Assembly: GCA_964468255.1 (NCBI GenBank)
Contig: CAYXTB010000001.1
Span: 1-58,714 of the forward strand
Reading direction: 5' to 3'
Length of the DNA: 58,714 bases
Source: Candidatus Woesearchaeota archaeon
GTDB lineage: Archaea; Nanobdellota; Nanobdellia; Pacearchaeales; GW2011-AR1
Position numbers and translations under genes: made by a program. Positions 1-45,605 of this stretch are shown in pieces (position 1 is the first letter of the stretch; each line of letters starts with the position of its first letter). Below the pieces are notes generated by a model. That model was not told the DNA's origin. It ran no database searches and saw only the letters and a list, made by a program, of their open reading frames with translations.

Positions 1-64
1 ATTATTATAAGGAATTTAAGGAAATGGAAGATATAGAGAAATATCTGTTTATTTCGTGTATAAG

Positions 65-1011
65 CCACTGACATATGTCGTAGGGACATATGTGTTGAAT
101 CACGTAAATCTAATTGGGTGTTAATTATATGATTCTTTAATGAGGAAAGAAGAAATAAGAAAAGAATTCTTCAAGTTAAAGAATAAAGGACATTCTTACT
201 CACAATGTAAGAAATTAATTCTTGCTCAGTTTGGTTATGAAGTTACAGCAAGAACTTTGCAAAGATGGGAAAGAAGATTAAGAACTGATAAATGGGATTT
301 ACAGGACGAATCAAGAAGACCTAAAAGGATTCATTACAAAGTTTCTCCTGAGACAGAACGAGAGATTGTTTCTATCAAGAAGCAAACTGGATGGGGAGCA
401 GAAAAAATAGAAGATGTTGTTGAAATTGGGCATACAACAATAAACAAAATTCTAAACAGACACAGGCTAACAAAGCCAAATGAAAACAGGAAAAAAAGAA
501 TCAAATATATTCGATGGCAAAGAGAACATCCAAACTCTCTATGGCAGATGGATATTAGTGACCAAAAAGTAGACAGCAAATACTTGTTCGCTGTTATTGA
601 TGATTGCTCAAGAGATTGTCTGGGATTGTTTGAGTTAAACAATATTTCAACTGCAATCATAACAAAATTATTGGATGATATTATCAAGATTCATGGCAAG
701 TCAAGAGAAATTTTAACTGACAATGGGAATGTTTTCGGATTGAGAAGCAAACATAGCAAGTTTGATAGATGGTGCAACAGAAGAGGAATAAAGCATATTA
801 GAACTGCAATTCATTCTCCAACTACAACAGGAAAGATAGAAAGATTCTTCCAGACTCTTGAGAAAGAATTGCCTTTCTGCAAGAATAACTTAGAGCTATT
901 TAGAATGAGGTATAATCACTTCAGACCCCATTCTAGTCTGCAAGGGAAAGCCCCTGCAGAGGTATATTTTGCGTTTAATAAGCTATTTTAGCTTACGACA
1001 TATGTCTATGG
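65..1011 (+). mobile_element. IS element (IS481/IS3-like, single DDE transposase) with imperfect terminal inverted repeats
   Basis: A single rve-type transposase ORF (140-991) is flanked by inverted repeats. 65-82 CCACTGACATATGTCGTA matches the reverse complement of 994-1011 (CCATAGACATATGTCGTA) at 16/18, with a perfect 13-bp core GACATATGTCGTA (70-82 / 994-1006). No clear target-site duplication was seen. Confidence 0.6.
140..991 (+). CDS. DDE transposase / integrase-core (rve) protein with N-terminal HTH
   Basis: 283 aa. It has an N-terminal HTH-like segment (TARTLQRWERRL), a D..D..E-type pattern (WQMDISD, LTDNGNVF, GKIERFFQTLEKE) and the C-terminal RPHSSLQGKAP typical of rve-family transposases. 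Confidence 0.85.
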   Translation: MRKEEIRKEFFKLKNKGHSYSQCKKLILAQFGYEVTARTLQRWERRLRTDKWDLQDESRRPKRIHYKVSPETEREIVSIKKQTGWGAEKIEDVVEIGHTTINKILNRHRLTKPNENRKKRIKYIRWQREHPNSLWQMDISDQKVDSKYLFAVIDDCSRDCLGLFELNNISTAIITKLLDDIIKIHGKSREILTDNGNVFGLRSKHSKFDRWCNRRGIKHIRTAIHSPTTTGKIERFFQTLEKELPFCKNNLELFRMRYNHFRPHSSLQGKAPAEVYFAFNKLF

Positions 1012-1068
1012 ATTGCACAAAGAGTTTTGCATAGATATATTTAAATAAGGTTTATTTGGTTTGTTTTT

Positions 1069-4837: not shown

Positions 4838-4875
4838 TTTTATCTCCTGATAAATTATATGTCTCCGTCGCCATT

Positions 4876-5772
4876 ATGGATGCAGAGAACAAAAGCTCAT
4901 ATAAAAAGAGCTTTTTAAAGATTTGTACGCTTTCAAAAATAATAAGGAATGCCAAGATAATTATACTTGCAATACTTATTAGTATTATGGATAAATTACT
5001 ATGGTTTCAGGATACTTCAGAGTGTAAAGATAAGATAGAAATGGAAAGTATAAACCTCAATGATTTAGAAAAGAGGCTTTCCTCTTCAGGATGTTTTGCT
5101 ATACCAAAGAAAGTTAGAGTAGGCCGTTATGAAATAGAAATTTACTTGGAAGATAAAAGGCCTCAATCGTCTAAAATGTCGCCTGCAGATGCCCTGGAAT
5201 TATCACAAAAATATGGAGATACTGGTTGGTTTCCAAAATCAGAAATAGAAGCTCTTATAGAGGGCAAAGGATTCGTCGTTGTTAGTGCAATGTTTGATCT
5301 CGGATATGTAAAAGACCATTTAGGTAAATTAGCAAAGAAGGAAAAAGGCATGTTCGCTCCTTATAGGCAAAGAATTGCAGAATATGAGTCTAAAATTTTT
5401 AAAATTGCTCAAGTTAATGACGATATTGAAATATTACATGAAAATGAATTTGGAGATGGATGGAATAATACATTTGTCATAACTTCAGGATATAAAGGAA
5501 TGATTTGTGTTGCTACAAAAGTTGCAGAATTATGCTCTCCAGGAATCCAGCCACCTGTAATGCATATATCTCAAAATCAACCTTCTTTTATAATAAAGGC
5601 GAAAAATGTTGTAGCAAGGAGTAATCGCCTAGTGCTAGTTAATTTATTTCACCCTCAAGGCGAGGCAAATCCATTTTATCAATGCCTTTTTCCCTATAAT
5701 ATACCTCTAAAAAAATTCTCTGAACTAGAAAGAAAATTCATAGAGGAAGTTAATCAGAGAATTATTGCTTGA
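4876..5772 (+). CDS. hypothetical protein (start uncertain: ATG at 4876, 4987 or 5041)
   Basis: The long ORF 4792-5772 was trimmed because its first 15 codons overlap the aEF-2 start on the other strand. No recognisable motifs. It ends 1 nt before the displaced rps7 3' remnant. Confidence 0.5.
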   Translation: MDAENKSSYKKSFLKICTLSKIIRNAKIIILAILISIMDKLLWFQDTSECKDKIEMESINLNDLEKRLSSSGCFAIPKKVRVGRYEIEIYLEDKRPQSSKMSPADALELSQKYGDTGWFPKSEIEALIEGKGFVVVSAMFDLGYVKDHLGKLAKKEKGMFAPYRQRIAEYESKIFKIAQVNDDIEILHENEFGDGWNNTFVITSGYKGMICVATKVAELCSPGIQPPVMHISQNQPSFIIKAKNVVARSNRLVLVNLFHPQGEANPFYQCLFPYNIPLKKFSELERKFIEEVNQRIIA

Positions 5773-5814
5773 TTATCTTGCAGCATCAGCCTGCTTTTCA
5801 GACTCATTTTTCTT
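5772..5814 (-). repeat. displaced duplicate of the rps7 3' end (last 13 codons plus stop)
   Basis: 5772-5814 matches 7086-7128 at 39/43 nt, with a perfect 29-nt core (5780-5808 = 7094-7122). Read on the minus strand it encodes KKNESEKQADAAR-stop, identical to the S7 C-terminus. All 4 mismatches are synonymous third-position changes. Confidence 0.85.
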
Positions 5815-6286
5815 TGTCCTTGTCCATTTTTTCTTTTAATCTATTTTTTAAGTTTTTCAATATATCTTTACCAACACTATTCCAAAAATTAGTTATCTCT
5901 CTTGCCTGTGAAACTGAGATTTTAAATCCTCTATAATTAGCACTGTGTCTTATTGATTTAAATCTTTCAAGAGAATTCAGCTTAACTTTTTGCTCGCTCG
6001 AAATAAAGTCTAAATTTAAGTATGTATCTTTTAACATCTCAATTGAAACTTCATGATTTTGTGGATTGTATCCTTCAATCCACCATAATGCATCTCCCAA
6101 TTGCCTAATAGACTCATAAATCTCTCTGAATATTGTAGTTGCCCCCTTTTCATTCAATTCCATTTCCAAAGCAACTTCTCCTGTATTTTTAGCAGATTCT
6201 ATTAATGATAAAGCCCTTTCTTTGTCAGAGCTTACCTTAAGTAATTGTTTTGATTTAATTAATTGGGAGATTCTATCTTCTTTCAT
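5804..6286 (-). CDS. HEPN-domain protein (toxin-like partner of the upstream MNT)
   Basis: 160 aa and helical. It has a C-terminal SIRHSANYRG block resembling the HEPN R-x-x-x-x-Y/H motif. Its start overlaps the stop of the upstream nucleotidyltransferase gene by 4 nt. Confidence 0.7.
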   Translation of the reverse strand: MKEDRISQLIKSKQLLKVSSDKERALSLIESAKNTGEVALEMELNEKGATTIFREIYESIRQLGDALWWIEGYNPQNHEVSIEMLKDTYLNLDFISSEQKVKLNSLERFKSIRHSANYRGFKISVSQAREITNFWNSVGKDILKNLKNRLKEKMDKDKEK

Positions 6287-6867
6287 GGTTTGACCTCTAA
6301 GAAACCCATTAGTACTATCCCATTAGCTATATTATTAAAAACATGCAGATCAGCGTTTTTTCTATTAAACTCGTGAATTTGTATTTTTTTGCCTATCTGT
6401 TTTTCAAATTCTGAAAGCTCTCTAAATCCAATAGTTTTATATTCTTTTATCTCTTCTCGTTCTATTGCTATATCTATATCAGAATTTGATATATCTTCAC
6501 CCTTTCTAAAGCTCCCAAAGAGAATAATTGCCTTGGGGTTGTTATACATTTTATTTAGAAATTCTACTAATCCGCTTTGATAAATAAAGTTAAGATTGTA
6601 TATTATTTTATTTTTTTTATAAATCCATTGTTCTCTGTTAGCCTTTATTCTCCATATTTTAGTAAGCTTTTCAATTTGAATAAATCCAGCAGATTCCAAT
6701 TGTCCAAGAATGCTTCCAACATTTGCTTTAGCTACTCCGGCTTCCTTTGCGATGTCGCTTAAGCTAAATTCTTTTTCAGGAAATCTATATAGTACTTCCA
6801 GAACTTTTTGTACTCCGGTTTCTATATAGAACTTACGATAATCATTAATACTATGTGGTTTCTTCAT
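6283..6867 (-). CDS. winged-helix DNA-binding domain fused to a minimal nucleotidyltransferase (MNT)
   Basis: 194 aa. The N-terminus is wHTH-like (FSLSDIAKEAGVAKANVGSILGQLESAGFIQ). The NTase motif is ILFGSFRKGEDISNSDIDIAI (G-S-x10-D-x-D). Confidence 0.8.
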   Translation of the reverse strand: MKKPHSINDYRKFYIETGVQKVLEVLYRFPEKEFSLSDIAKEAGVAKANVGSILGQLESAGFIQIEKLTKIWRIKANREQWIYKKNKIIYNLNFIYQSGLVEFLNKMYNNPKAIILFGSFRKGEDISNSDIDIAIEREEIKEYKTIGFRELSEFEKQIGKKIQIHEFNRKNADLHVFNNIANGIVLMGFLEVKP

Positions 6868-6906
6868 ATAACATACGTTATATTATAGATATATAAATGT
6901 TTCTAT

Positions 6907-7073
6907 TGTCAAGAACCCTCAGACTAAAGTCTGGGGCGTGTTTGGGTTCTTGAGCACCTCGAGAATTCTGTTTGCTTCTTCAAAAACTTTCAGTTTTTGA
7001 GGCCTCAAAAATCCGCAAAAGATTTTTGAAGTCTCACGGACTAAAGTAGGGAGTTTACGCAAACAGAATTCTC
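6907..7073. repeat. hairpin-rich repeat element, copy A (possible MITE or structured RNA)
   Basis: The terminal hairpin 6907-6957 is TGTCAAGAACCC...GGGTTCTTGAGCAC. A perfect 15-bp inverted repeat (GAGAATTCTGTTTGC 6961-6975 / GCAAACAGAATTCTC 7059-7073) encloses two hairpins. A 33-mer, TTCTTCAAAAACTTTCAGTTTTTGAGGCCTCAA (6976-7008), is identical to 31644-31676. Confidence 0.6.
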
Positions 7074-7086
7074 TCAGTATTAAAAA

Positions 7087-7722
7087 TTACCTCGCAGCAT
7101 CAGCCTGCTTTTCAGACTCATTCTTTTTTATCATACAATAGCTGTCTCCTCCTCCCTTTGCAGCAGCCATTATTTCATTTGCTAAAGTATCTGCCATCTT
7201 GTTTCTTTTGCCAAAGCTTTTAGCATAAGCCCCCTGTACTATCCACCTGATTGCTAAATTAATTCTTCTTATCGGACTCGTGTCTACAGCTTGAGGATAT
7301 CTTGCCCCTGCCTGTTCAATAACAGTTATCTCATCCCTTGGCGAGCCATTCTCAATTGCATTCACTAATATTTGTACGGGATTTTGCCCTGTTTTTTTCT
7401 CTACAATATCTAGGGCTATAAGTATTGTTTTCATATTTCTGTTGTATTTTCCAGAACTCCATGAAGTAATTATTTTATGTTTCTTTCCAACATGTCCTGG
7501 CACAGCCAATCTATTTGCTAATCTTTCTACAATTGAAGCTTTCAAATAAGCAAGCTTTTCCAACTGCCTGCCATAGGACTTCGCCAAAAGTTTTCCCCTT
7601 AGGTTGATATATGGCCTCAGAGCATTATCTTTAACTTTTACTTCTTCAGTTGAATATTTATCAAATAGTTTGAATTCTTTTTCTATTGTTTGTTCTTGCT
7701 TTATTTGTTCAGGCATTGCCAT
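7087..7722 (-). CDS. rps7: 30S ribosomal protein S7 (uS7)
   Basis: 211 aa. The sequence is archaeal uS7-like, and the gene sits immediately (1 nt) downstream of rps12. Confidence 0.93.
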   Translation of the reverse strand: MAMPEQIKQEQTIEKEFKLFDKYSTEEVKVKDNALRPYINLRGKLLAKSYGRQLEKLAYLKASIVERLANRLAVPGHVGKKHKIITSWSSGKYNRNMKTILIALDIVEKKTGQNPVQILVNAIENGSPRDEITVIEQAGARYPQAVDTSPIRRINLAIRWIVQGAYAKSFGKRNKMADTLANEIMAAAKGGGDSYCMIKKNESEKQADAAR

Positions 7723-24977: not shown

Positions 24978-25062
24978 CTTTTTATTTTTTAAAGTGAAAA
25001 ATGTTCTTACTTCAATCCAATAAAAATTTTGTAAAATAAAATAATTAATATCTCATTAACTT

Positions 25063-25284
25063 TCATTTTCTATCAATACCCATTACAATCAGCACAATTG
25101 CTATCAGTAAATACAATAATAGTATAAAAGGATTGTGAAAGATTACTATTCCTAAAAGGCTGTCCTCAACAATATAATTAGCTCCGCTTTCTGTATTAAT
25201 TTTAACAAAATAGCTTAGAGCTAAAAATACTGAAATTGCCAGGCCAAAATAAAGCCAAATTTTCTTTTTTATTTTATCTTTCAT
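25063..25284 (-). CDS. small membrane protein (two predicted TM helices)
   Basis: 73-aa ORF with two hydrophobic stretches. No family recognised. Confidence 0.4.
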   Translation of the reverse strand: MKDKIKKKIWLYFGLAISVFLALSYFVKINTESGANYIVEDSLLGIVIFHNPFILLLYLLIAIVLIVMGIDRK

Positions 25285-25363
25285 AAGGCATCCTAATAAA
25301 GATTTGTATACGTAAATCTTTAAATACTCTTACCTGCTCAAAATCATATAAAAAGAGGAAAAT

Positions 25364-25555
25364 ATGGCGAAGAATTGTATTTACTGCAAGAATAATATCG
25401 ATGAAAATTCAGTAATTGATTTCTGCCAGCGCTGCGGAATTGGAGTCTGGGGAGAAAAGATGCTTGCAGCTATTGTGCAGAGCATGGAAAAAGCCAGGGA
25501 TTCAGGAGATTTACACCAAGGCTCTGTTACGAACACTGTAATCACACAGAGATAA
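25364..25555 (+). CDS. small zinc-ribbon protein
   Basis: 63 aa with a CIYC...CQRC pair of CxxC knuckles. Confidence 0.55.
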   Translation: MAKNCIYCKNNIDENSVIDFCQRCGIGVWGEKMLAAIVQSMEKARDSGDLHQGSVTNTVITQR

Positions 25556-25589
25556 AAAGCTTTTTAAACCGCTTCTTTTACCTAAGTAT

Positions 25590-25847
25590 ATGCCAAAGCA
25601 TAAGAACCCAAGGCAAAAAGGAAAAATACCATTCAGCAAGTATTTTCAAGAATTCAAGACAGGAGATTCTGTAGCAGTGTCTATAGAACTTAGCATTCCG
25701 TTCCCTTACTTGAAAAGGATCCAGGGAAGAACCGGAAAGGTAATTGAAAAAAAAGGCTCTTCATATTATGTTGAGATTCCTGATTTAGGCAAATCAAAGC
25801 GATACTTAATAAAGCCAATTCACCTGAAAAAAATCTTAGCAAAATAA
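25590..25847 (+). CDS. rpl21e: 50S ribosomal protein L21e
   Basis: 85 aa with the N-terminus MPKHKNPRQKGK...F..GD.V typical of eL21. It is followed by rpoF and DUF655, as in the conserved archaeal cluster. Confidence 0.88.
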   Translation: MPKHKNPRQKGKIPFSKYFQEFKTGDSVAVSIELSIPFPYLKRIQGRTGKVIEKKGSSYYVEIPDLGKSKRYLIKPIHLKKILAK

Positions 25848-30362: not shown

Positions 30363-30995
30363 ATGTATATCTTCAATGAAGAACATAAGATAGGCAAGGC
30401 TTTTCTAGAAAAGCCTTGGAAAAAGCTTACTTATTTGGAAGTGCGAAAGCTCTCGGGAAAAAAGTCTAAGAGTTATATTTATCGCGCACTAAACCATCTA
30501 ATGCATAACGAAATTATTATGACTGAACAAGTTGGCAGGTCTCTTTTATACTATCCGACACTGAATTTTTTACAGACGCAGTCTTACTTAGGGTCATTAA
30601 ATGAGCATCTTTCTTGGCAGGCAACCCATATACACAGCAATATCTTAGAAAGACTTGCTGATAAAATTATCAAAATTACGCCCTTTTTTATCTTGATTGT
30701 TGCTGGTAGCTATGCCAATAGAACACAGACAAAAAAATCAGACCTTGATGTCGTTATTATTTGCGACGACAAAATTAACCCGAAAACTATAATGGCTGAA
30801 ATTAAATTGGAGAGTGTTATGAGCATTCCACAAGTGCATCCTTTTGTTTTTACAAAAAAAGAATTTTTAGAGATGCTTACAAATAAAGGAATTAATTATG
30901 GAAAGGAAGTTGTAAATAATAATATGATTTTTTTCGGCGGAGAAAATTACTATAACATAATTAACGAGGCTATACAACATGGATTTAGAGGTTAG
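30363..30995 (+). CDS. winged-helix domain fused to a minimal nucleotidyltransferase (MNT)
   Basis: 210 aa with the NTase motif VAGSYANRTQTKKSDLDVVIICDD. It has the same architecture as 6283-6867. Confidence 0.78.
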   Translation: MYIFNEEHKIGKAFLEKPWKKLTYLEVRKLSGKKSKSYIYRALNHLMHNEIIMTEQVGRSLLYYPTLNFLQTQSYLGSLNEHLSWQATHIHSNILERLADKIIKITPFFILIVAGSYANRTQTKKSDLDVVIICDDKINPKTIMAEIKLESVMSIPQVHPFVFTKKEFLEMLTNKGINYGKEVVNNNMIFFGGENYYNIINEAIQHGFRG

Positions 30996-31455
30996 TCTAT
31001 TATTTGAAAGAGCAGAGAATGAGCTTCTTGCGGCTGAAGTACTTAAAAAGCTGAGTGAAGAAGCTGAAGCAAAGCAAGTCTTGGAAGTGCCTGCTGCAAC
31101 TACTTTTTATAGTTCTGTAATAAACCATGCTTATTACGCAATATTCTATAGCGCTAAGGCTTATCTAACTTTTAAAGGGTTTAAACTTCCAGAGCAAGGC
31201 CAACATCAGGCTGTTTATTATGAATTTAAGCGATTTGTGCAAAAAGGAGATCTTAAAAAAGAGTTGCTTGACTTATACGATGAAGTAAAGACTAAAGCTG
31301 AAACTTTGCTCTCGATTATACAAGAGGAAAGAGGCAAACGCGAAGAATATACATATAAAACTCTTCCTCAAGCAAACAAGGAGCCTGCGGAAAATTCCCT
31401 AAAGAATGCTCGCCTTTTTGTTTCACATATGAGGAGATTCAGCGAGAAAATATAA
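30979..31455 (+). CDS. HEPN-domain protein (partner of the MNT)
   Basis: 158 aa and helical, with an HAYYAIFYSAKAYL block typical of HEPN (PF05168-like). It overlaps the MNT gene by 17 nt. Confidence 0.68.
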   Translation: MDLEVSLLFERAENELLAAEVLKKLSEEAEAKQVLEVPAATTFYSSVINHAYYAIFYSAKAYLTFKGFKLPEQGQHQAVYYEFKRFVQKGDLKKELLDLYDEVKTKAETLLSIIQEERGKREEYTYKTLPQANKEPAENSLKNARLFVSHMRRFSEKI

Positions 31456-31508: not shown

Positions 31509-31611
31509 GCGCGATTAGTTAAATGGCAGAATAGCTGGTTTCCAAAATATAATGACTAATAGGCTATATTGAAACAACCAGCGGACACGGGTTCGATTCC
31601 CGTATCGCGCA
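31509..31611 (+). tRNA. intron-containing tRNA, most likely tRNA-Gly (UCC); Trp (CCA) is a less likely alternative
   Basis: Acceptor GCGCGAT/ATCGCGC, D arm GTTA-AATGGCA-GAAT with A14, G18G19 and A21, and T arm ACGGG-TTCGATT-CCCGT. The anticodon stem GCTGG/CCAGC encloses 39 nt, that is a 7-nt loop TTTCCAA plus a ~32-nt intron at about 37/38. Discriminator A. Confidence 0.75.
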
Positions 31612-31643
31612 TTTAAATCAAAAAAACGATGACAGGCACTCGT

Positions 31644-31778
31644 TTCTTCAAAAACTTTCAGTTTTTGAGGCCTCAAGAACTTCGTTCTTGAAGTTTGGAT
31701 GCAGCAAATTTGAAAAATTTGCTGAACAGAAAATGCAAGGCATTTTCTTGTGCTCAAGGAAATCAAATTCCTTGACAT
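31644..31778. repeat. hairpin-rich repeat element, copy B (five consecutive hairpins)
   Basis: The 33-mer 31644-31676 is identical to 6976-7008. The hairpins are TCAAAAACT/AGTTTTTGA, TCAAGAAC/GTTCTTGA, CAGCAAATTT/AAATTTGCTG, AGAAAATGC/GCATTTTCT and the terminal GTGCTCAAGGAA-ATCAAA-TTCCTTGACAT (31750-31778). Confidence 0.6.
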
Positions 31779-36068: not shown

Positions 36069-37469
36069 ATGCAAAAAACCATTATATTAGGGGCAGGGCC
36101 TGCAGGGCTTGCAGTCGCCTATAAGATTTCAGAAGAAGGCAAAGAATCGTTAATTATTGAAAAGGAAAAGAGAGTTGGCGGGCTTTCTAAGTCATTTAAA
36201 TATAAGGGATTTACTTTTGATATAGGCCCACATTTATTCAAGACAAGAAATAAAGAAATAACTGCGCTCTGGGATGTAATGTCAAAAAAGAAATATGCTG
36301 ATAATAAACATGCGCCTGCAATGCTTTACAATAAAAAAGTATATGAAAGCATGACTGATATTATCTATAGCCTTCCAAAACTTAAATTTCTTGCTGCTGC
36401 TTTAAGCACACTTTCTGCAAAAATATTTGATAAGAAAATTAATTCTGGAGAAGATTGGATATCTGCAACAAGAGGCAGGATTATTTATAAAAAATTTTAC
36501 AAACCGAGAGAAGAAAAATTCTGGGGAACGAGCCTGGATAAAATAGATAAAGAATGGTATGAAAAAAGATTCGGAGAGCATAAATTAAAAGGCTTATTTG
36601 CAGGATTCAAAAACAGGATTCTCGGAAAATCTGGAAATAATAGAGCAATAGACACAACATATCATCCTCAAAAAGGGGCTGGAAGCATGTATGAGGCACT
36701 TGCTTCCATTATAAAGAAAAGAAAAAAAAGCAGGTTTATTTTCAATTCTGTTCCTGAAAAGATAAAACATAAAGGAAAGAAGATAAAATCAATTATTATT
36801 AGAAATTTAAAAACTGGCAGATTAAGAGAGATTAAGGCAGGAGAATTAATATCAAGCATTCCTATAATGGAATTAATTAAAAAGCTTGAGCCAAAAGCTC
36901 CGGAAGAAATACTTGAAATCTGCAAAGAATTAAAATATAGGGATTTAATTCTGGTTAATTTAATTGCTGAATTAAAAGGAGAAATGAAACATAGCTTCTT
37001 TAATGTTTATTCAAATGATATTAAGGCATTTAGAATAACGAATTTTGAGAATCTTTCTGAAAAAATGGGAAACGGGACAAAAATGAAGCCAATATGCATT
37101 GAATATAATTGCCTCAAAAATGATTTCTTATGGAATATGAATAAAAAGAAAATTATAGAAATGGCAAAGGAAGAGCTGGAAAAAATTGGATTTACAAAAA
37201 AAAACAAGATAAAGAATGGCTTTGTAGTTAAAATTGAGAATGCCTACCCAATACACTCAATTGGCTTTCAGGAAAAAACTAGGAAATTAAGGGAATATTT
37301 AATGAGATTTGAGAATTTGCAGAGCATTGGCAGAAATGGAGTATTTACTTATAATCAAATGAGGCATTCAGTTGAATCAGGATTAAGGGCAGGGGAAAAA
37401 GCCCTTGGAATAAGAAAAGATTTTGGAAAAATAGAAACAACTGATGAGGGAAGGGATGTTCTGGATTGA
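36069..37469 (+). CDS. FAD/NAD(P)-dependent oxidoreductase (amine oxidase / UDP-galactopyranose mutase-like fold)
   Basis: It has the Rossmann dinucleotide motif IILGAGPAGLAVAY...IIEKEKRVGG. The start was moved to the ATG at 36069 because the track ORF starts at a TTG at 36051. Confidence 0.75.
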   Translation: MQKTIILGAGPAGLAVAYKISEEGKESLIIEKEKRVGGLSKSFKYKGFTFDIGPHLFKTRNKEITALWDVMSKKKYADNKHAPAMLYNKKVYESMTDIIYSLPKLKFLAAALSTLSAKIFDKKINSGEDWISATRGRIIYKKFYKPREEKFWGTSLDKIDKEWYEKRFGEHKLKGLFAGFKNRILGKSGNNRAIDTTYHPQKGAGSMYEALASIIKKRKKSRFIFNSVPEKIKHKGKKIKSIIIRNLKTGRLREIKAGELISSIPIMELIKKLEPKAPEEILEICKELKYRDLILVNLIAELKGEMKHSFFNVYSNDIKAFRITNFENLSEKMGNGTKMKPICIEYNCLKNDFLWNMNKKKIIEMAKEELEKIGFTKKNKIKNGFVVKIENAYPIHSIGFQEKTRKLREYLMRFENLQSIGRNGVFTYNQMRHSVESGLRAGEKALGIRKDFGKIETTDEGRDVLD

Positions 37470-37508
37470 GTAAAGAGATAAATTTAAAAGTTTAAGATAG
37501 GAAGCAAG

Positions 37509-38639
37509 ATGATGATAAACTGCGGGAAATTTTATAAAGCACTTATAGATAGAAAGATAGAGTTTTTTACAGGAGTTCCTGATTCTTTGTTAAAAGATAT
37601 ATGCGCTTACATAACTGATAATACTCCTAAAGAAAGAAATATTATTGCTGCAAATGAGGGAGGAGCAATTGCCCTTGCTTCTGGATATTATTTAGCAACT
37701 GGAAAAATGCCTTTGGTTTACATGCAGAATTCTGGACAGGGAAATTCCATCAATCCTTTAGCTTCTTTAACAGACAAGGAAGTTTATAGCATTCCAATGC
37801 TGTTAATGATAGGATGGAGGGGAGAGCCGGGAAAGGAAGACGAGCCGCAACATAGAAAACAGGGCAGGATTACTTTAGATTTATTAAAAGTCCTTGAAAT
37901 TCCATATGAAATATTGTCTGATAAGAGCAATGGAATTGAGGATTACATTGACCGGGCGGTTACTCATATGAAAAAGAAAAACAGCTCTTATGCGTTCGTC
38001 GTGAGAAAAGGAACATTTGAGTCGTATGCTTTGAAAAATGACGGGGAGGAAAGGTACAAATTAACAAGAGAAGAAGCAATAAAATTGGCTGCCGAAAAAT
38101 TGGATGGAAGAGAAGTTATAATTTCTACAACCGGCATGATTTCAAGAGAGCTTTTTGAATATAGAAAGGGCAAAAATCAAAATTTGGGTAGAGATTTTTT
38201 AACAGTGGGATCAATGGGGCATGCTTCCCAGATAGCTCTCGGCATTGCGTTATCAAAGCCAAACAGAGAAGTTTATTGTTTTGACGGGGATGGCTCTGTA
38301 ATAATGCATCTTGGCTCTCTTGCTGTTATCGGAGAAAAAAAGCCGAGAAATTTTAAGCATATAGTTTTTAATAATGGAGTGCATGATTCAGTTGGCGGTC
38401 AACCAACTGCCGGCTTCTCAATAAATATCCCTGAAATTGCAAAGGCATGTGGTTACAAAGAAACATGGAGCGCTGAAACAGCCGAAGAAGCTGAGGAAAA
38501 GATAGAATTGCTGAAGAAAGCTGAAGGCCCTTCTCTTCTTGAAATAAAGGTCAGAAAGGGGCATAGAAAAAATCTCAGCAGACCAGACAAGAGCCCAGAG
38601 GAAAATAAAAATAATTTCATGAATTTCCTTGAAGAATAG
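37509..38639 (+). CDS. aepY: phosphonopyruvate decarboxylase
   Basis: 376 aa. It has the N-terminal FFTGVPDSLLKD block and the ThDP motif GDGSVIMHLGSL...VFNNGVHDSVGGQPT, both typical of Ppd. It is flanked by the AEP transaminase gene and lies near the PEP mutase gene. Confidence 0.85.
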   Translation: MMINCGKFYKALIDRKIEFFTGVPDSLLKDICAYITDNTPKERNIIAANEGGAIALASGYYLATGKMPLVYMQNSGQGNSINPLASLTDKEVYSIPMLLMIGWRGEPGKEDEPQHRKQGRITLDLLKVLEIPYEILSDKSNGIEDYIDRAVTHMKKKNSSYAFVVRKGTFESYALKNDGEERYKLTREEAIKLAAEKLDGREVIISTTGMISRELFEYRKGKNQNLGRDFLTVGSMGHASQIALGIALSKPNREVYCFDGDGSVIMHLGSLAVIGEKKPRNFKHIVFNNGVHDSVGGQPTAGFSINIPEIAKACGYKETWSAETAEEAEEKIELLKKAEGPSLLEIKVRKGHRKNLSRPDKSPEENKNNFMNFLEE

Positions 38640-38787
38640 CTAATTCAGCAAATATTATATCTTAATTATCTGCAGTTCTCTAACATTATCTTCATTAAGT
38701 TAATTATTGTTTCTAATTTCAGATATAATTCCTAGTTTGCTCTTAAAGATAGGGCAAGAGAATAAATATATTTATAAAAGGAGCAAA

Positions 38788-39936
38788 ATGCTGAATAAGA
38801 TGGAACCTCTGGAATTAAAAGTTAAGAGAAATATATTGTTAAATCCTGGGCCTGGAACAACGACTTACAGCGTTAAAATGGCTCAATTAGTTCCCGATAT
38901 CTGTCATAGAGAGAAGGAATTCTGCCTTCTTCTTGATGGTATAAGAAAAGACCTTGTTAAAATAGCCTCTAAAAGCCAAGAGGATCATACTGCTGTTCTT
39001 TTTGCAGGTTCTGGGACTGCTGCTGTTGAATCAGTTATAATATCTGCCATACCCGATAATAAAAAACTTCTTGTCATTAATAATGGGGCGTATGGAGACA
39101 GAATTGCAAAAATAGCCAGAACATTTGGAATAAATTTAGAGGAGCAAAAATATTCTTGGAATCAAGGGCCTGATTTGGAGAGAGTAAGGAGAGCTGTAAG
39201 TGAAAGTGGAATTGAATATATCGCGGCAGTCCATCATGAAACAACCTCTGGATTGCTAAATCCTATAAGAAAGCTCGGAGAAATAGCAAAGGCAAATGGA
39301 TGCAAATTTATTGTAGATGCAATGTCCAGCTTTGCAGGGATTGCTTTTAAAATGGAAGAGAATAATATAGATTACTTAATTTCCTCTGCAAACAAATGCT
39401 TACAAGGAATGCCTGGCATTTCATTTGTTATAGCAAAAAAAGATGAAATTGAAAAATTAAAAGATGGAAAAAAGAAATGTTTTTATCTTGATTTGCATGC
39501 GCAATATGAATCCTTGGAAAAACAGCAGCAAATGCGCTTTACTCCTCCTGTTCAAACTGCCTATGCATTGAGAAAGGCAATAGACGAGTTTTTTGAGGAA
39601 GGAGCTGAAAGAAGGCAGGAAAGATATTTCAAAAGCTGGCAGACTCTTACATCTGGATTGCATGAAATAGGATTTAAGCTTTTAATTGAAGATGAAAGGA
39701 TGCAGTCAAGAATATTGACTTCTGTAGTTGAGCCTAAGAATCAAGAGTATGATTTTGATAGACTGCATGATAGATTATATGAAAAAGGATTTACTATTTA
39801 TCCAGGCAAAATTGGAAACATGAATACATTTAGAATAGCAAATATGGGAGCAATAGATTATAGAGATATTGAAAACTTCCTTTCTGCTTTAAAAGATTCT
39901 TTAAAATGTATGGGAATTGAGAAATTAGTTTATTAA
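38788..39936 (+). CDS. phnW: 2-aminoethylphosphonate:pyruvate aminotransferase (class V aminotransferase)
   Basis: It has NPGPGTTT near the N-terminus and the PLP-lysine block SSANKCLQGMPG. The start was set at the ATG at 38788, which is preceded by AAAGGAG. The track ORF begins at a TTG at 38707. Confidence 0.8.
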   Translation: MLNKMEPLELKVKRNILLNPGPGTTTYSVKMAQLVPDICHREKEFCLLLDGIRKDLVKIASKSQEDHTAVLFAGSGTAAVESVIISAIPDNKKLLVINNGAYGDRIAKIARTFGINLEEQKYSWNQGPDLERVRRAVSESGIEYIAAVHHETTSGLLNPIRKLGEIAKANGCKFIVDAMSSFAGIAFKMEENNIDYLISSANKCLQGMPGISFVIAKKDEIEKLKDGKKKCFYLDLHAQYESLEKQQQMRFTPPVQTAYALRKAIDEFFEEGAERRQERYFKSWQTLTSGLHEIGFKLLIEDERMQSRILTSVVEPKNQEYDFDRLHDRLYEKGFTIYPGKIGNMNTFRIANMGAIDYRDIENFLSALKDSLKCMGIEKLVY

Positions 39937-39977
39937 ACTTTCATAATATTTATATATGGAGCTTTGCAGGAAGAAAA

Positions 39978-40838
39978 ATGGAAGCACAAGGAAAAACGCG
40001 GGAAGAAGAACAGAAAGATTTTTTTAGGGAGAATTGCTATTTGCTCGTGAGAGATTTTTTCTCTGAAGAACAAGTCAGGTTATTAAGAAGATATGCTGAT
40101 GAAATGGGCGAGCAATCGCAAAGAGTATTGAATGCTGCCCCACAATCAAGTATGGATATTAATTCTTTTCAAAATGCATTTAAAGGATTAATAGTTGTGC
40201 CAGAAAAAGAAAAGCCTAATCAGGTATGCAGAGTAGAGGATATGCTTTCGTATAGCAGAGGCCTTTATCATTTGGTCTTGGGAAGCGTTACTCCTTTTAT
40301 TTCAGATGTTCTTGGGGAAGAATATGTTCCATTCAAGGATAAGCTTAACTTCAAATGGCCTGGAGGAGGAGCTTTTAAGCCTCATCAAGATTATCCTGCT
40401 TATGACTTGTTTGGGCCGAAAGAGCATGTAACTGCTATGATAAGCATTGATCCATCAACTTTGGAAAATGGCTGCCTTAAAGTTGCCCATAATTACAGGA
40501 AGCCTTTAATAGCAAATGAAAGAATAGAGCAAAAATCTTTATTGCTGGGAAAACCAATAATACCATATAATGGAGATACTATGGAGCAAGAATTTGTTGA
40601 TGTGTTTGATTGGAGGCCTATTGCAACAATGCCAAGGGATTTATTAATATTTGATTCCTATGTTCCTCATGCATCTGAGGCAAATGCCAGCAATTTCCCA
40701 AGAAGAGCAATGTTCATAACGCACAACAGGCTTGCTGAAGGAGAATGGAGAAAAGCATATTACGATTTGAAGAGGAGAGACCCCTTAAATCCTAAGTTTC
40801 ATTTTGCAAATCCAACTACAAAGAGAGAGGAAAAGTAA
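39978..40838 (+). CDS. PhyH-family Fe(II)/2-oxoglutarate dioxygenase
   Basis: 286 aa with an HQD facial-triad start (KPHQDYPAY) and a distal His (YVPHASEAN). It sits inside the phosphonate cluster, where PhnY*-type AEP hydroxylases belong to this family. Confidence 0.7.
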   Translation: MEAQGKTREEEQKDFFRENCYLLVRDFFSEEQVRLLRRYADEMGEQSQRVLNAAPQSSMDINSFQNAFKGLIVVPEKEKPNQVCRVEDMLSYSRGLYHLVLGSVTPFISDVLGEEYVPFKDKLNFKWPGGGAFKPHQDYPAYDLFGPKEHVTAMISIDPSTLENGCLKVAHNYRKPLIANERIEQKSLLLGKPIIPYNGDTMEQEFVDVFDWRPIATMPRDLLIFDSYVPHASEANASNFPRRAMFITHNRLAEGEWRKAYYDLKRRDPLNPKFHFANPTTKREEK

Positions 40839-40865
40839 TAAATAGTGTTTTTTTCTTTGATTTAA

Positions 40866-41393
40866 ATGAAAGGAAAATTAATAGTTTTTGAGGGAGCTGA
40901 CGGCTCTGGAAAAACATCTACAATAGATGCTCTAATGCCTCTGTTGGAAAACCATGGATTTTCTGTTAAGAGAATTTATTTTAGCTCTTTATTGAGAAAA
41001 AGGACTATATTAAGAAGGGCCTTTTCACTTTTTGGAAAGCTGCTCCTGGCTTATTTCAGTTTAATTACCGGAAAATTAATTTTAGCTGATAGGTATATTT
41101 ATTTAACATTCAGGAAAAATGAAATATTGAAAAAAATAGTAAGAACTTTATATCCTAGGGCTGACAAGGTTTTTGTTATGAAGGCAAGCCCTAAAGTATT
41201 AAGAAAAAGGAGGGAGATTTATGAGGGAATTGGGAATAAGCTTTTAAAAAGAAAGGCTGAATTGCAAAGCATTAAAGAGATAAATGAATTGTATAGAATC
41301 TACGAATCTGTACCTAAAGCAATAGTAATCAATATGGAAAAGCCGAGAAAATCAAATTTAAATATTATAATAAATGAAATAAAACAATTATAA
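40866..41393 (+). CDS. thymidylate-kinase-like P-loop kinase (paralogue group 2 of 4)
   Basis: 175 aa with the blocks LIVFEGADGSGKTS, LADRYIYLTFRKN and VFVMKASPKVLRKRR. Confidence 0.7.
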   Translation: MKGKLIVFEGADGSGKTSTIDALMPLLENHGFSVKRIYFSSLLRKRTILRRAFSLFGKLLLAYFSLITGKLILADRYIYLTFRKNEILKKIVRTLYPRADKVFVMKASPKVLRKRREIYEGIGNKLLKRKAELQSIKEINELYRIYESVPKAIVINMEKPRKSNLNIIINEIKQL

Positions 41394-41395
41394 AA

Positions 41396-42283: not shown

Positions 42284-42335
42284 ATAAAGAATTTAATTTC
42301 ATTTTATATATAAAGCCCTTACCCTTAGAAAGTAG

Positions 42336-42773
42336 ATGAAAAAGGAGACAGGAACAATAACGCCAGAAGAGACTACTAATAACATTTTAAATCTTAATTC
42401 ATTTTGTATTATAGCCACTGCATCTGAAAAAGGAGAGCCAGAAGCGGCAACTATTGAATACATGAGAGGAGATGAGTATGATTTATATTTCAAAACATTT
42501 AGTGACAGCAGGAAATATAAAAATCTCTGCTTAAATCATAGGGCAAGCATTGTTGTAAATTTTCTGCCGCATTCTTTGCAGATGAATGGTATTATTTTCG
42601 AATTAGAAGGCAACGAAAAGGAGAAGATTAAAGAAAGATTTATGAAAGAGAACGGAAAGGAAAATTGGTATAATTATCCTGAAACCAAATTTCTTAAATT
42701 TTCTCCTAATTGGATAAGGCTTTTTGTGCCAAACAAATTTTTTCCTATAAAGCAGATTATTAATAAAACTTAA
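42336..42773 (+). CDS. pyridoxamine 5'-phosphate oxidase-like FMN-binding split-barrel protein
   Basis: 145 aa. The pattern FCIIATASEKGEPEAATIEY...LYFKTFSDSRKYKNL..N.RASIVV is typical of the PNPOx-like family. Confidence 0.65.
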   Translation: MKKETGTITPEETTNNILNLNSFCIIATASEKGEPEAATIEYMRGDEYDLYFKTFSDSRKYKNLCLNHRASIVVNFLPHSLQMNGIIFELEGNEKEKIKERFMKENGKENWYNYPETKFLKFSPNWIRLFVPNKFFPIKQIINKT

Positions 42774-42822
42774 AGCATTATTTAGCTATCATTATAATTA
42801 TCTTATACACTGATGTAATTGT

Positions 42823-42861
42823 CAGCAATTCTCTTGTGCTCAAGGTCAAGTTCCTTGACAT
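42823..42861. repeat. hairpin repeat element, copy C (solo terminal module)
   Basis: CAGCAATTCTCTTGTGCTCAAGG-TCAAG-TTCCTTGACAT matches the right end of copy B (31745-31778). It also matches the reverse complement of the left end of copy A. Confidence 0.55.
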
Positions 42862-42948
42862 GATAAATTACCTATAAATAAACTGAAAGGATTGAACTAT
42901 AAGATAAAGTACAGGTATATTTAAAAAAGGCTCTATTTCTTGAATTAA

Positions 42949-45479: not shown

Positions 45480-45605
45480 TTTTTGTAAAAATTCAATATT
45501 ATGAGGTTTTATAAATATATATGAAAGATGATTCCATAGACTTGTATTATCTGTTACAATGATTCTTGTTTGGGATATTAGAGGGCAATCATAAATGTTT
45601 ATAAA

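What the first reader, a model, noticed from the sequence alone, without database searches (positions are those of the whole stretch)
6907..7073. Hairpin-rich repeat family with compensatory stem changes (copy A, upstream of MNT/HEPN)
Copy A shares an identical 33-mer with copy B (6976-7008 = 31644-31676), containing the hairpin TCAAAAACT-TTC-AGTTTTTGA. The next hairpin differs between copies but keeps its pairing: A has TCAAAAATC/GATTTTTGA and B has TCAAGAAC/GTTCTTGA. The terminal hairpin has conserved flanks, GTGCTCAAG...CTTGACA, but covarying stems: A, in inverted orientation, has CAAGAACCC/GGGTTCTTG, B has CAAGGAA/TTCCTTG and C has CAAGG/CCTTG. In A, a perfect 15-bp inverted repeat (6961-6975 / 7059-7073) closes the central part. 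Structure-preserving variation argues for a functional RNA/DNA structure or a MITE-like mobile element rather than chance similarity. Both long copies sit next to MNT/HEPN modules.
Basis: seen in the sequence. Interest (0 to 1): 0.66.

Follow-up and report, generated by a model that had tools for sequence, protein, structure and literature searches.

The report
Nested palindromic repeat family, Woesearchaeal genome
Copy A is a diverged member of a lineage-specific family of modular, hairpin-within-hairpin DNA repeats that sit just behind genes in a few Woesearchaeota (DPANN archaea) genomes; the family behaves like bacterial REP/BIME or MITE-type selfish DNA rather than a dedicated RNA gene, and its position next to MNT/HEPN-type genes looks incidental.

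Summary
The 33-mer, the three GTGCTCAAG...CTTGACA hairpins and the 15-bp inverted repeat lie at the stated coordinates, and chance would give none.

The window is a metagenome contig of a Woesearchaeota-like archaeon. Searches of public genomes and metagenomes, plus a covariance model, found about 15 more copies in related MAGs and metagenome contigs.

The family is modular. A conserved 5' end (ATCAAAAAAACGATG) and conserved linkers join up to six hairpin modules, and the element ends in CTTGACAT. Modules are present or absent independently, and hairpin doublets sit inside the loops of other hairpins.

- Stems change only from one Watson-Crick pair to another.
- G-U pairs are about 4.5% on both strands.
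- Loops flip between copies.
- No reading frame is conserved, and there is no Rfam or viral match.

Two copies in one MAG are 220/221 identical with unrelated flanks, and they have no target-site duplication or terminal inverted repeats. Copies usually start 1-15 nt after an upstream gene and point the same way.

Best reading: a REP/BIME- or MITE-like palindromic interspersed repeat maintained at the DNA level and co-transcribed as a 3' trailer. Copy A lies on the minus strand, with its central doublet inverted, at the edge of an insertion between rpS7 and EF-2. The MNT/HEPN link is not general.

The parts
6905..7085 (-). Copy A, whole composite element. Read on the minus strand: degenerate 5' module, double hairpin, collapsed P5, GAGGTGC linker, P6 with a nested hairpin, then CAAT.
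   Evidence: CM R1 scores 70.4 bits at 6967-7046. Module order compared.
6907..6957 (-). P6 terminal unit hairpin: GTGC-TCAAGAACCC...GGGTTCTTGA-CA, with the nested hairpin CCCCAGAC-TTTA-GTCTGAGG. It lies 39 nt upstream of the MNT ATG, and a TTTATATA box sits between them.
   Evidence: An A-type relative is at L092 8134-8184.
6961..6975 (.). Left arm of the perfect 15-bp inverted repeat. On the minus strand it reads GCAAACAGAATTCTC, which corresponds to linker GAAC plus a collapsed P5 (AGAATTCT).
6978..7031 (.). Double hairpin (P2/P3 doublet): CTTCAAAAACT-TTC-AGTTTTTGAGG CC TCAAAAATC-CGCAAAA-GATTTTTGAAG. It is inverted as a block relative to copy B and contains the 33-mer shared with B.
   Evidence: D12.
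7034..7058 (-). Remnant of the 5' nested-hairpin module. It shares GACTAAAGT with the P6 nested hairpin.
   Evidence: A relative is at L092 8080-8110.
7059..7073 (.). Right arm of the 15-bp inverted repeat.
31617..31778 (+). Copy B, a canonical full element (P1 without cap, P2, P3, P4, P5, P6). It starts 5 nt after tRNA-Gly and ends 55 nt before the secF ATG.
   Evidence: CM R1 scores 98.1 bits.
42817..42862 (+). Copy C, a 3' fragment (P5-like hairpin, TTGTGC linker, P6). It starts 44 nt after the stop of the PNPOx-like gene and ends 88 nt before the methyltransferase ATG.
   Evidence: (D3).
7086..7132 (-). Direct repeat DR2. This is the functional 3' end of rpS7 (...KKNESEKQADAAR*), and it abuts copy A.
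   Evidence: D7.
5772..5818 (-). Direct repeat DR1. This is a displaced duplicate of the rpS7 3' end (89% identical), lying after the HEPN-like gene. It marks the far edge of a 1.3-kb insertion made of copy A, the NTase gene and its partner gene.
   Evidence: D7. Relatives have rpS7 followed directly by EF-2.
6283..6867 (-). wHTH-nucleotidyltransferase (MNT-type) gene downstream of copy A.
   Evidence: Pfam Polbeta/NTP_transf_2 plus MarR-like HTH. PADLOC PDC-M05A, 1.4e-19.
5804..6286 (-). Partner gene of the NTase (HEPN-like by context).
   Evidence: No Pfam HEPN hit. PADLOC PDC-M05B, 1.6e-4.
7087..7722 (-). Ribosomal protein S7 gene. Copy A lies in its 3' trailer.
31509..31611 (+). Intron-containing tRNA (anticodon UCC, Gly) immediately upstream of copy B.
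   Evidence: Rfam, 53 bits.

Best explanation
Copy A is a diverged, partly rearranged member of a lineage-specific family of interspersed palindromic DNA repeats in Woesearchaeota-type DPANN archaea. The family is comparable to bacterial REP/BIME/REPIN or MITE elements.

Shown:
- The elementary unit is a 20-50 nt perfect hairpin with a conserved foot, TG(C)TCAAR...YTTGA-CA.
- Units occur as inverted doublets, ...TTGAGG|CCTCAA... or ...TTGAGCAT|GCTCAA....
- Composites of 50-380 nt are built from optional modules joined by conserved linkers: 5' ATCAAAAAAACGATG, P1, P2-P3, AGTTTGGATGC, P4, GAAC, P5, TTGTGC, P6, CAT.
- Doublets are found inside the loops of other hairpins.
- Near-identical composites sit at unrelated sites. 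Their ends are exact, with no target duplication and no terminal inverted repeat.

Inferred:
- Copies spread as DNA. The likely route is single-stranded hairpin intermediates handled in trans by an HUH/Y1-type transposase, as for REP-RAYT and IS200/IS605. Replication template switching is the alternative.
- Template switching or recombination within a palindrome would also flip loops and whole doublets, and would keep the stems perfect.
- Copies persist only in the small harmless slot of a compact genome: just behind a stop codon or the 3' end of an RNA gene, and ahead of the next promoter.
- They persist mostly in the orientation that keeps the T7 run (an archaeal terminator signal) off the sense strand.
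- They are therefore co-transcribed as structured 3' trailers. There they may incidentally block 3'-5' decay or read-through.

Copy A itself lies in the rpS7 trailer, at the edge of a 1.3-kb NTase/HEPN-like insertion flanked by a duplicated rpS7 3' end.
For: Family and distribution:
- The 29-mer occurs in 3 loci of 2 Woesearchaeota MAGs among 185,579 species genomes.
- The 20-mer gives 3 true loci in JGI metagenomes.
- A spurious ORF led to locus L013.
- CM R1 found further copies: L004b, L004c and L003b.
- In loci fetched through rpS7, and so not selected for the element, copies lie at L092 2300-2355, L092 8060-8190 and L094 10691-10807.

Modularity and nesting:
- L094 has P1+P6 without the doublet.
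- L005 lacks the P1 cap and P4-P5.
- L009 and L011 have the doublet alone.
- In L003b, a doublet is inserted in the loop of the hairpin nested inside P6.
- In L004b, a 51-nt insert sits in the P1 loop relative to L004a.

Maintenance at the DNA level:
- Plus and minus strands fold equally well. G-U is 38/806 pairs on the plus strand and 35/807 on the minus strand.
- P3 is 100% paired, with 4 of 9 pairs changed on both sides and none changed on one side only.
- Loops are reverse-complemented between copies that share the same stems: TTC/GAA, TCC/GGA, AGATA/TATCT.

Mobility or recent duplication:
- L004b and L004c are 220/221 identical. Their flanks match at 14/40 positions, which is chance level. 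The shared ends are exactly ATCAAAAAAACG...CCTTGACAT.
- Occupancy of orthologous spacers varies. The rpoH-rpoB spacer is filled in L005 and is 5 nt and empty in the window. The rpS7-EF-2 spacer differs in content in the window, L092, L094 and L095.

Not coding, not a known RNA, not viral:
- No conserved frame on either strand.
- No Rfam match.
- No viral match.

Position and orientation:
- 7 of 9 P1-bearing copies start 1-15 nt after the upstream gene.
- 11 of 14 orientable copies point the same way as that gene.

Literature: a MITE census reported a Woesearchaeal genome with 105 MITEs per Mb (PMC11602168).
Against: - No transposase that could mobilise the family was seen. The only transposase in the window is an rve/DDE IS whose TIRs are unrelated. 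None is annotated in the related loci.
- No conserved target sequence or target duplication was found.
- Linkers are better conserved than hairpin stems, for example in L003b. That could instead mean the linkers are functional, as in a structured RNA.
- Orientation bias and tight placement behind stop codons would also fit a selected RNA 3'-end element.
- Complete genomes were not available, so copy number per genome is an extrapolation.
- Copies were partly ascertained with exact words from P2, so the conservation of P2 is inflated.
Confidence: 0.55

Rival explanations
1. A selected cis-acting RNA element of mRNA and stable-RNA 3' trailers. The stack of stable hairpins directly behind the stop codon protects the upstream transcript from 3'-5' exonucleases, or it insulates or terminates transcription before the next promoter. 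The repeats are kept because of that function. This is compatible with a mobile origin.
For: - Copies start 1-15 nt after the upstream gene's end and stop 39-193 nt before the next start codon, with TATA-like boxes in between.
- 11 of 14 copies are co-oriented with the upstream gene.
- An element lies in the rpS7-EF-2 spacer in three different genomes.
- Folding is very stable, z = -4 to -7.6.
- Linkers are conserved.
Against: - Pairing is equally good on the antisense strand, and G-U pairs are nearly absent.
- Loops flip.
- Module content is haphazard: L092 has P6 only, and L095 has nothing in the same spacer.
- Three copies are antisense to, or divergent from, their neighbours (L003a, L013b, L004c).
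- Placement behind stop codons is also what purifying selection on insertions in a compact genome would produce.
Confidence: 0.2
2. A multi-copy family of independently transcribed small non-coding RNAs. Conserved single-stranded linkers would form the functional core and variable hairpins would act as spacers. Transcription could come from the plus strand, using the A/T-rich ATAAT-like 5' flank. It could also come from the minus strand, starting in the TATA-rich spacer and ending at the T7 run.
For: - Linkers are conserved while stems are exchanged.
- P1 covaries in L003a: GCGCC/GGCGC and ACACGA/UCGUGU, against GUGCC/GGCAC and AAACGA/UCGUUU.
- The T7 run on the minus strand is a good archaeal terminator.
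- An A/T-rich motif lies upstream of the 5' end in several copies.
Against: - No Rfam family matches, even at E <= 10.
- No promoter motif lies at a fixed distance in the 3' flanks.
- On the plus strand, the upstream gene or tRNA ends only 1-15 nt before the element.
- Every module, including the linkers next to it, can be missing.
- Strand-neutral pairing.
- Fragments and rearranged copies such as A and C are typical of repeats, not of RNA genes.
Confidence: 0.1
3. A protein-binding or recombination site tied to the neighbouring gene cassette. The P6 palindrome upstream of the MNT gene would be the operator of the wHTH-NTase. Alternatively, the element would be an attC/att-like site at which the NTase/HEPN-like cassettes were integrated.
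For: - The NTase next to A has an N-terminal MarR-like wHTH.
- P6 sits about 15 nt upstream of its TATA-like box.
- A and B both lie next to PDC-M05-type pairs.
- L013 has a P6-type hairpin in front of another NTase gene.
- A lies at the edge of an insertion flanked by 47-nt direct repeats (D7).
Against: - The three NTases are only remotely related.
- Most copies have no NTase/HEPN neighbour.
- Arm spacing in the palindromes varies from 3 to more than 30 nt, which does not suit a dimeric operator.
- There are no integron core sites, and no integrase is nearby.
- The direct repeats are rpS7 sequence, not element sequence.
Confidence: 0.07

Closest known systems
REP / BIME / REPIN elements of bacteria (mobilised by RAYT, an IS200/IS605-type Y1 HUH transposase)
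   Same: - Short extragenic palindromes with a conserved stem foot and a variable tip.
- Occur singly, as inverted doublets (REPIN-like, e.g. L092 8060-8190 and L011 3345-3460) and as mosaics with conserved linkers (BIME-like).
- Lie in transcribed 3' regions and between genes of operons.
- No TIR or TSD.
   Different: - No GTAG or CGTC tag at the foot. That tag is defining according to PMC3733652; here the foot is TG(C)TCAAR.
- Stems are perfect rather than imperfect.
- Hairpins are nested inside the loops of other hairpins.
- The host is archaeal.
- No RAYT gene was seen in the sequence available.
MITEs and small bacterial repeats (Correia/NEMIS, ERIC/IRU, RUP, BOX, enterobacterial RU). A MITE census noted a MITE-rich Woesearchaeal genome (PMC11602168).
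   Same: - Small, non-coding, intergenic, multi-copy.
- Strongly folding and co-transcribed with neighbours.
- Lineage-specific.
- The 48-nt doublet has inverted ends, CTTCAA.../...TTGAAG.
   Different: - The composite element has no terminal inverted repeats (5' ATCAAAAA; the 3' end reverse-complemented reads ATGTCAAG) and no target-site duplication.
- No parent IS with matching ends. The IS in the window has different TIRs.
IS200/IS605-derived non-autonomous elements (PATEs of haloarchaea and cyanobacteria; from my own knowledge)
   Same: - No TIR and no TSD.
- Subterminal hairpins.
- Strand-specific insertion.
- Known in archaea.
   Different: - No conserved 4-5 nt target 5' of the element: the left flanks are CGAG, CTAA, TTAA, TGAC, CAAA....
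- Much smaller and more modular.
- No TnpA or TnpB partner was found.
Rickettsia palindromic elements (RPE)
   Same: - Palindromic repeats of about 100-150 nt.
- Found in intergenic DNA and next to RNA genes.
- One copy (L004a) lies in frame in the 5' end of a protein gene.
   Different: - No frame is kept open across the family.
- No CGTC tag.
- Insertion inside a gene was seen only once, and an internal ATG could bypass it.

Membership tests
REP/REPIN-RAYT | Short extragenic palindromes, repeated, in single and inverted-doublet form | tested here: met
   Unit hairpins and doublets found. All are intergenic in the window.
REP/REPIN-RAYT | Conserved GTAG (or CGTC) tetranucleotide at one end of the palindrome | tested here: not met
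   The foot is TG(C)TCAAR...YTTGACA in all copies. The defining tag is described in PMC3733652.
REP/REPIN-RAYT | A RAYT (Y1 HUH transposase) gene in the genome, flanked by the repeats | not testable with these tools
   None among the window ORFs scanned or in the Pfam annotations of the related loci. Whole genomes could not be retrieved.
MITE | Terminal inverted repeats | tested here: not met
   Composite ends are ATCAAAAAAACG... and ...CCTTGACAT. Only the internal 48-nt doublet has inverted ends.
MITE | Target-site duplication | tested here: not met
   The nearly identical copies L004b and L004c have flanks CGAG|...|TATA and CTAA|...|AATT. Other copies show only A-rich similarity.
MITE | Autonomous IS with the same ends | tested here: not met
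   The IS at window 57-1019 (rve transposase) has TIRs TGTATAAGCCACTGACATATGTCGTA, unrelated to the element. Only the sequence in hand was tested.
IS200/IS605-derived elements (PATE) | Insertion 3' of a fixed tetra- or pentanucleotide; subterminal hairpins; no TIR or TSD | tested here: inconclusive
   Hairpins are present and TIR/TSD are absent, so those features are met. No fixed left-flank target was found among 9 copies.
Any Rfam RNA family (C/D, H/ACA, ribozymes, SRP, RNase P and others) | Match to a curated covariance model | tested here: not met
   No hit on the elements at gathering score in the window or 9 loci. At E <= 10 there were only chance snoRNA hits of 13-17 bits.
Integron attC | R''/R' core sites (RYYYAAC ... 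GTTRRRY) bounding an imperfect palindrome, with cassette arrays and IntI | tested here: not met
   The ends do not fit the core sites. No integrase lies near A or B. No cassette array is present.
Protein-coding small ORF or translated insertion | One reading frame conserved across copies | tested here: not met
   Stops occur in every frame in some copy, and the same nucleotides are read in different frames in different copies.

The most novel reading that the evidence does not exclude
The family may be an undescribed class of archaeal mobile DNA. In this reading, a ~20-50 nt hairpin or a 48-nt hairpin doublet is the transposing unit, and it preferentially lands in the loops and linkers of earlier copies. 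This would build hierarchical hairpin-in-hairpin composites that then move as wholes. The enzyme would be an unknown hairpin-specific (ssDNA) one in DPANN archaea. Frequent loop and doublet inversion would be a by-product.
Probability: 0.25. Interest if true: 0.65.

Novelty: new variant of a known kind. Interest (0 to 1): 0.45.

Why it matters
DPANN archaea have tiny, compact genomes, and the content of their intergenic DNA is hardly described. This family may occupy much of the non-coding space in its lineage: about 7 loci in 95 kb of sequence that was not selected for the element. It sits behind core genes (rpS7, rpoH, 5S rRNA, tRNAs).

Why that is useful to know:
- It breaks assemblies. A Logan contig ends inside the P6 hairpin.
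- It generates spurious ORFs.
- It can lie inside gene starts (L004a).

If a dedicated hairpin-recognising transposase exists, it would extend REP/RAYT-type biology to Archaea. If the hairpins act as 3'-end stabilisers, they bear on mRNA decay and operon punctuation in archaea.

For the original finding, the practical message concerns method. Perfect compensatory changes in palindromes, with flipped loops and no G-U pairs, should not be read as RNA covariation.

Tried and rejected
- **Protein coding.** A Tat-like RRSFLQKL peptide and minus-strand MSR... ORFs looked tempting. They were rejected because frames shift between copies and stops occur. A peptide search of 5.8 billion proteins gave one spurious ORF.
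- **Known RNA.** Rfam gave nothing at gathering score or at E <= 10.
- **C/D-box or K-turn closure** (CGAUGA...YUGA), H/ACA (terminal ACA) and a bulge-helix-bulge intron were checked by hand. The spacing and the required G-A pairs or bulges do not fit.
- **Viral or plasmid origin.** The 18-mer has 0 hits in IMG/VR. The 78 hits to a 15-mer are all chance.
- **Segmental duplication of an MNT/HEPN-plus-element block.** The two pairs are unrelated in sequence, and there are no direct repeats at locus B.
- **Derivation from the IS in the window.** The TIRs are unrelated.
- **Target-site duplication.** Only an 8-nt coincidence in L012; none in the young pair L004b/L004c.
- **Strand assignment by folding energy or G-U content.** No difference between strands.
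- **Strain-level comparison.** The only other contigs with identical proteins (L002, L096) stop at or before the elements. P0002 could not be looked up.
- **MAFFT alignment of whole elements.** It mis-aligns modules, so module comparisons rest on direct reading and on the P2-P3 alignment.
- **More copies in the window.** The weak CM hits at 25923 and 55208 are noise, and 43073-43097 lies in the VLDIGCG motif of a methyltransferase.
Full report
**1. Observation**

- 6976-7008 equals 31644-31676 (D12).
- GTGCTCAAG-N-CTTGACA occurs three times: 6907-6957 on the minus strand, 31750-31777 and 42836-42860. None appeared in 100 shuffles.
- The 15-bp inverted repeat 6961-6975/7059-7073 is perfect.
- Copy A folds far better than shuffled sequence: z = -6.1 with DNA parameters and -7.6 with RNA parameters. 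Copy B gives z = -5.5.
- All the hairpins share one foot, TCAAR...YTTGA. There are 8 such hairpins in the window against 2.15 expected.

**2. Context**

The window is part of an ENA metagenome contig, ERZ27284378 k139_260516, 62.5 kb. It comes from a low-GC archaeon (34% GC).

The minus strand carries the gene string rpoH-rpoB-rpoA-nusA-S12-S7 ... EF-2. One tRNA contains an intron. The closest S7 proteins come from Woesearchaeota, Pacearchaeota and 'Nanoarchaeota' MAGs at 72-81% identity.

- Copy A lies between the rpS7 stop (7087) and the start of a wHTH-nucleotidyltransferase gene (6867).
- Copy B lies between tRNA-Gly(UCC) and secF.
- Copy C lies between a PNPOx-like gene and a methyltransferase gene.

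**3. More copies elsewhere**

- The 29-mer from the shared hairpin occurs in only three loci of two Candidatus Woesearchaeota MAGs among 185,579 species genomes.
- A 20-mer gave three true loci in JGI metagenomes (L009, L011, L012) plus four chance hits.
- A peptide translated from the element pulled out one spurious ORF, and with it a third contig of the first MAG (L013).
- A covariance model of the double hairpin (R1) then found three more full copies. L004b and L004c flank a tRNA-Leu. L003b lies directly behind a 5S rRNA.
- Loci fetched through rpS7, and so not selected for the element, also carry copies: L092 2300-2355, L092 8060-8190 and L094 10691-10807.
- IMG/VR has none.

**4. Anatomy**

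Full copies read as follows:
- 5' ATCAAAAAAACGATG.
- P1: AAACGA(U)GYGCC ... GGCRC-UCGUUU, optionally capped by nested hairpins and UUUGUGAYA.
- P2: CTTCAAAAACT-loop-AGTTTTTGAGG.
- CC.
- P3: TCAAGAAC-loop-GTTCTTGA.
- AGTTTGGATGC.
- Optionally P4, GAAC, P5, TTGTGC.
- P6: TCAAGG..CCTTGA, optionally with a nested hairpin and GGTTTTCGTCAAG.
- CAT.

Every module can be absent.
- L005 has no P1 cap and no P4-P5.
- L094 has P1+P6 but no P2-P3: CTCGTGT|TTGGGATGT where others carry the 48-nt doublet.
- L092 2300-2355 is P6 alone.
- Window copy C is P5+P6.
- L009 and L011 are the doublet alone.

Hairpin doublets also sit inside the loops of other hairpins.
- In L003b, two TCAAG..CTTGA units joined by CGGCCG interrupt the loop of the hairpin nested in P6.
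- In L003a, L004b and L013, two hairpins interrupt the TTAAAA loop of the P1 cap that is intact in L004a.
- L092 8060-8190 and L011 3345-3460 are inverted doublets of the form ATG-TCAAR..YTTGA-GCATGC-TCAAR..YTTGA-CAT.

**5. Copy A re-read**

On the minus strand, A follows the canonical order: a degenerate 5' module (with a nested ..AC-TTTA-GT.. hairpin), the P2/P3 doublet, AAGCAAAC, AGAATTCT (P5 collapsed to its stem), CGAGGTGC, P6 (TCAAGAACCC..GGGTTCTTGA with a nested hairpin), then CAAT. It points the same way as rpS7 and the NTase gene.

The doublet is quasi-palindromic as a block: CTTC..GAGG CC TC..GAAG. In A it is inverted relative to B. The AAAAACT/AGTTTTT hairpin sits in the P3 slot with its loop reading GAA. 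This explains why the 33-mer matches B on the plus strand while P6 matches on the minus strand.

The 15-bp inverted repeat around the doublet is the P5/linker region plus an inverted copy of it. A-type relatives of the nested hairpins and of P6 exist in L092.

**6. DNA or RNA?**

Several observations point to palindromes maintained as DNA, or at least with no preference for one strand.
- Across 11 copies, predicted pairs on the plus strand are 768 Watson-Crick and 38 G-U. On the minus strand they are 772 and 35. Folding energies of the two strands are the same within a few kcal/mol.
- In the P2-P3 alignment of 11 sequences, P3 pairs in 100% of cells. Four of its nine pairs change on both sides and none changes on one side only. 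The observed covariation score (0.195, against a shuffled mean of 0.097) was reached by 0 of 500 shuffles.
- Between copies that share identical stems, loops are reverse-complemented. P2 is TTC in six copies and GAA in L013, L004b and L004c. P3 is TTC, but GAA in L003a. A P1 inner loop is TCC in L003a and GGA in L013. P5 is AGATA in L003a and TATCT in L013.
- The one conserved wobble (U-G in P2) is mirrored by a C-A mismatch at the equivalent place in P3. The asymmetry therefore belongs to the larger palindrome and not to one strand.

Perfect stems, flipped loops and flipped doublets are what template switching or recombination within palindromes produces. They do not need selection on an RNA.

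No reading frame is conserved on either strand. No Rfam model matches.

**7. Mobility**

- L004b and L004c, 499 bp apart on either side of a tRNA-Leu, are 220/221 identical. Their flanks match at 14/40 positions, which is chance level. Identity begins exactly at ATCAAAAAAACG and ends at CCTTGACAT. There is no target duplication and no terminal inverted repeat.
- Other pairs of full copies are 77-83% identical over gapped alignments.
- Orthologous spacers differ in occupancy. rpoH-rpoB holds a 117-nt element in L005 and is 5 nt long in the window. rpS7-EF-2 holds P6 only in L092, P1+P6 in L094 and nothing in L095. In the window it holds copy A plus 2 kb of inserted genes.
- No candidate transposase was found. 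The window's only transposase is an rve/DDE IS (57-1019) with unrelated TIRs.

**8. Placement**

Seven of nine P1-bearing copies begin 1-15 nt after the end of the upstream gene or RNA:
- rpS7, about 10-13 nt;
- tRNA-Gly, 5 nt;
- 5S rRNA, about 15 nt;
- the S-layer-like ORF, 8 nt;
- rpoH, 9 nt;
- the pilin-like ORF, 1 nt;
- the lysozyme gene, 9 nt.

The distance to the next start codon is 39-193 nt and contains TATA-like boxes.

By my reading of the gene maps, 11 of 14 orientable copies point the same way as the upstream gene. A one-sided binomial test gives about 0.03.

Both features fit an RNA 3'-trailer role. They also fit survival of insertions only in the one harmless slot of a compact genome, in the orientation that keeps the T7 run (the complement of the 5' A7) off the sense strand.

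**9. The MNT/HEPN link**

Both gene pairs match the PADLOC candidate system PDC-M05 A/B. The NTases have Pfam NTP_transf_2/Polbeta domains. The one at A also has a MarR-like wHTH. The partner at B hits HEPN, while the partner at A has no Pfam hit.

The two pairs are nevertheless almost unrelated in sequence. The NTase next to a P6-type hairpin in L013 is unrelated to both. Most copies elsewhere have no such neighbour. I treat the association as incidental, or at most as shared use of permissive insertion spots.

The NTase/partner pair at A, together with A, is bracketed by 47-nt direct repeats, 5772-5818 and 7086-7132 (89% identical). Both encode the rpS7 C-terminus KKNESEKQADAAR* (D7). In three relatives rpS7 is followed directly by EF-2. 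The block is therefore an insertion into the rpS7 3' end.

**10. Comparison with known systems, and verdict**

The family works most like REP/BIME/REPIN and MITE-type small repeats. It fails their membership tests:
- no GTAG or CGTC tag (PMC3733652);
- no TIR or TSD;
- no matching IS;
- no fixed target, unlike IS200/IS605 derivatives.

A MITE census noted a Woesearchaeal genome with 105 MITEs per Mb (PMC11602168). High repeat load in this clade is therefore already on record, but this architecture is not described there.

I rate it a new variant of a known kind, of moderate interest. The probabilities are:
- 0.55 for selfish palindromic DNA that is co-transcribed;
- 0.20 for a selected cis-acting RNA trailer;
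- 0.10 for an independent ncRNA family;
- 0.07 for an operator or att site.

Noticed in passing
window 5772-5818 and 7086-7132; whole block 4838-7086: The last ~43-47 nt of rpS7 (encoding KKNESEKQADAAR*) are duplicated at 89% identity on the far side of the NTase/HEPN-like pair. In three relatives rpS7 is followed directly by EF-2. About 2.25 kb (copy A, the NTase gene, its partner gene and a 298-aa ORF of unknown function on the opposite strand) is therefore inserted DNA. The stop codon of the HEPN-like gene lies inside the duplicated piece.
   Followed up: partly
window 57-1019: Insertion sequence with an rve (DDE) transposase ORF at 140-991 and 26-nt terminal inverted repeats (57-82 / 994-1019, 81% complementary). 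It is unrelated to the hairpin family.
   Followed up: partly
window 6283-6867 / 5804-6286 (minus) and 30363-30995 / 30979-31455 (plus): Both wHTH-NTase plus partner pairs match the PADLOC candidate defence system PDC-M05 (A: 1.4e-19 and 9.4e-11; B: 1.6e-4 and 5e-3). They are almost unrelated to each other in sequence. The second pair is bracketed by tRNA-Arg(CCT) and an intron-containing tRNA-Gly(UCC).
   Followed up: partly
window 31509-31611: A tRNA with a ~32-nt intron in the anticodon loop (anticodon UCC). Rfam found it at 53 bits; ARAGORN missed it.
   Followed up: partly
window 36069-47039: Phosphonate-type biosynthesis cluster in a DPANN-like genome:
- PEP phosphomutase fused to an NTP-transferase (43761-45479, minus strand);
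- TPP-dependent decarboxylase-like gene (37509-38639);
- class V aminotransferase (38788-39936);
- PhyH dioxygenase (39978-40838);
- MobA-like NTP transferase (45606-46382);
- CDP-alcohol phosphatidyltransferase (46383-47039).
   Followed up: partly
window about 25000-25600: Gene orientation and GC skew both switch here. Genes are on the minus strand to the left and on the plus strand to the right, and cumulative skew reaches its minimum here. All three repeat copies point the same way as the genes on their side. Whether this is a replication origin was not examined.
   Followed up: no
L004 3152-3330: One copy (L004a) lies in frame inside the annotated 5' end of a 497-aa secreted-protein ORF. 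The ATG overlaps the upstream stop codon (TAATG). Removing the element would leave a normal signal peptide, MKNIKK-KKVILYAGILIFF.... An internal ATG in the element could also serve as the start.
   Followed up: partly
L003 5141-5255 and 5270-5650; L004 5027-5110: In the related MAG, elements directly follow a 5S rRNA gene, and two nearly identical copies flank a tRNA-Leu(GAG). Stable-RNA genes seem to be frequent neighbours, as with copy B in the window.
   Followed up: partly
L002 (Logan SRR8863434_172326), position 1: An independent assembly of the same organism breaks exactly inside the nested hairpin of copy A's P6. This suggests that the palindromes fragment short-read assemblies.
   Followed up: no
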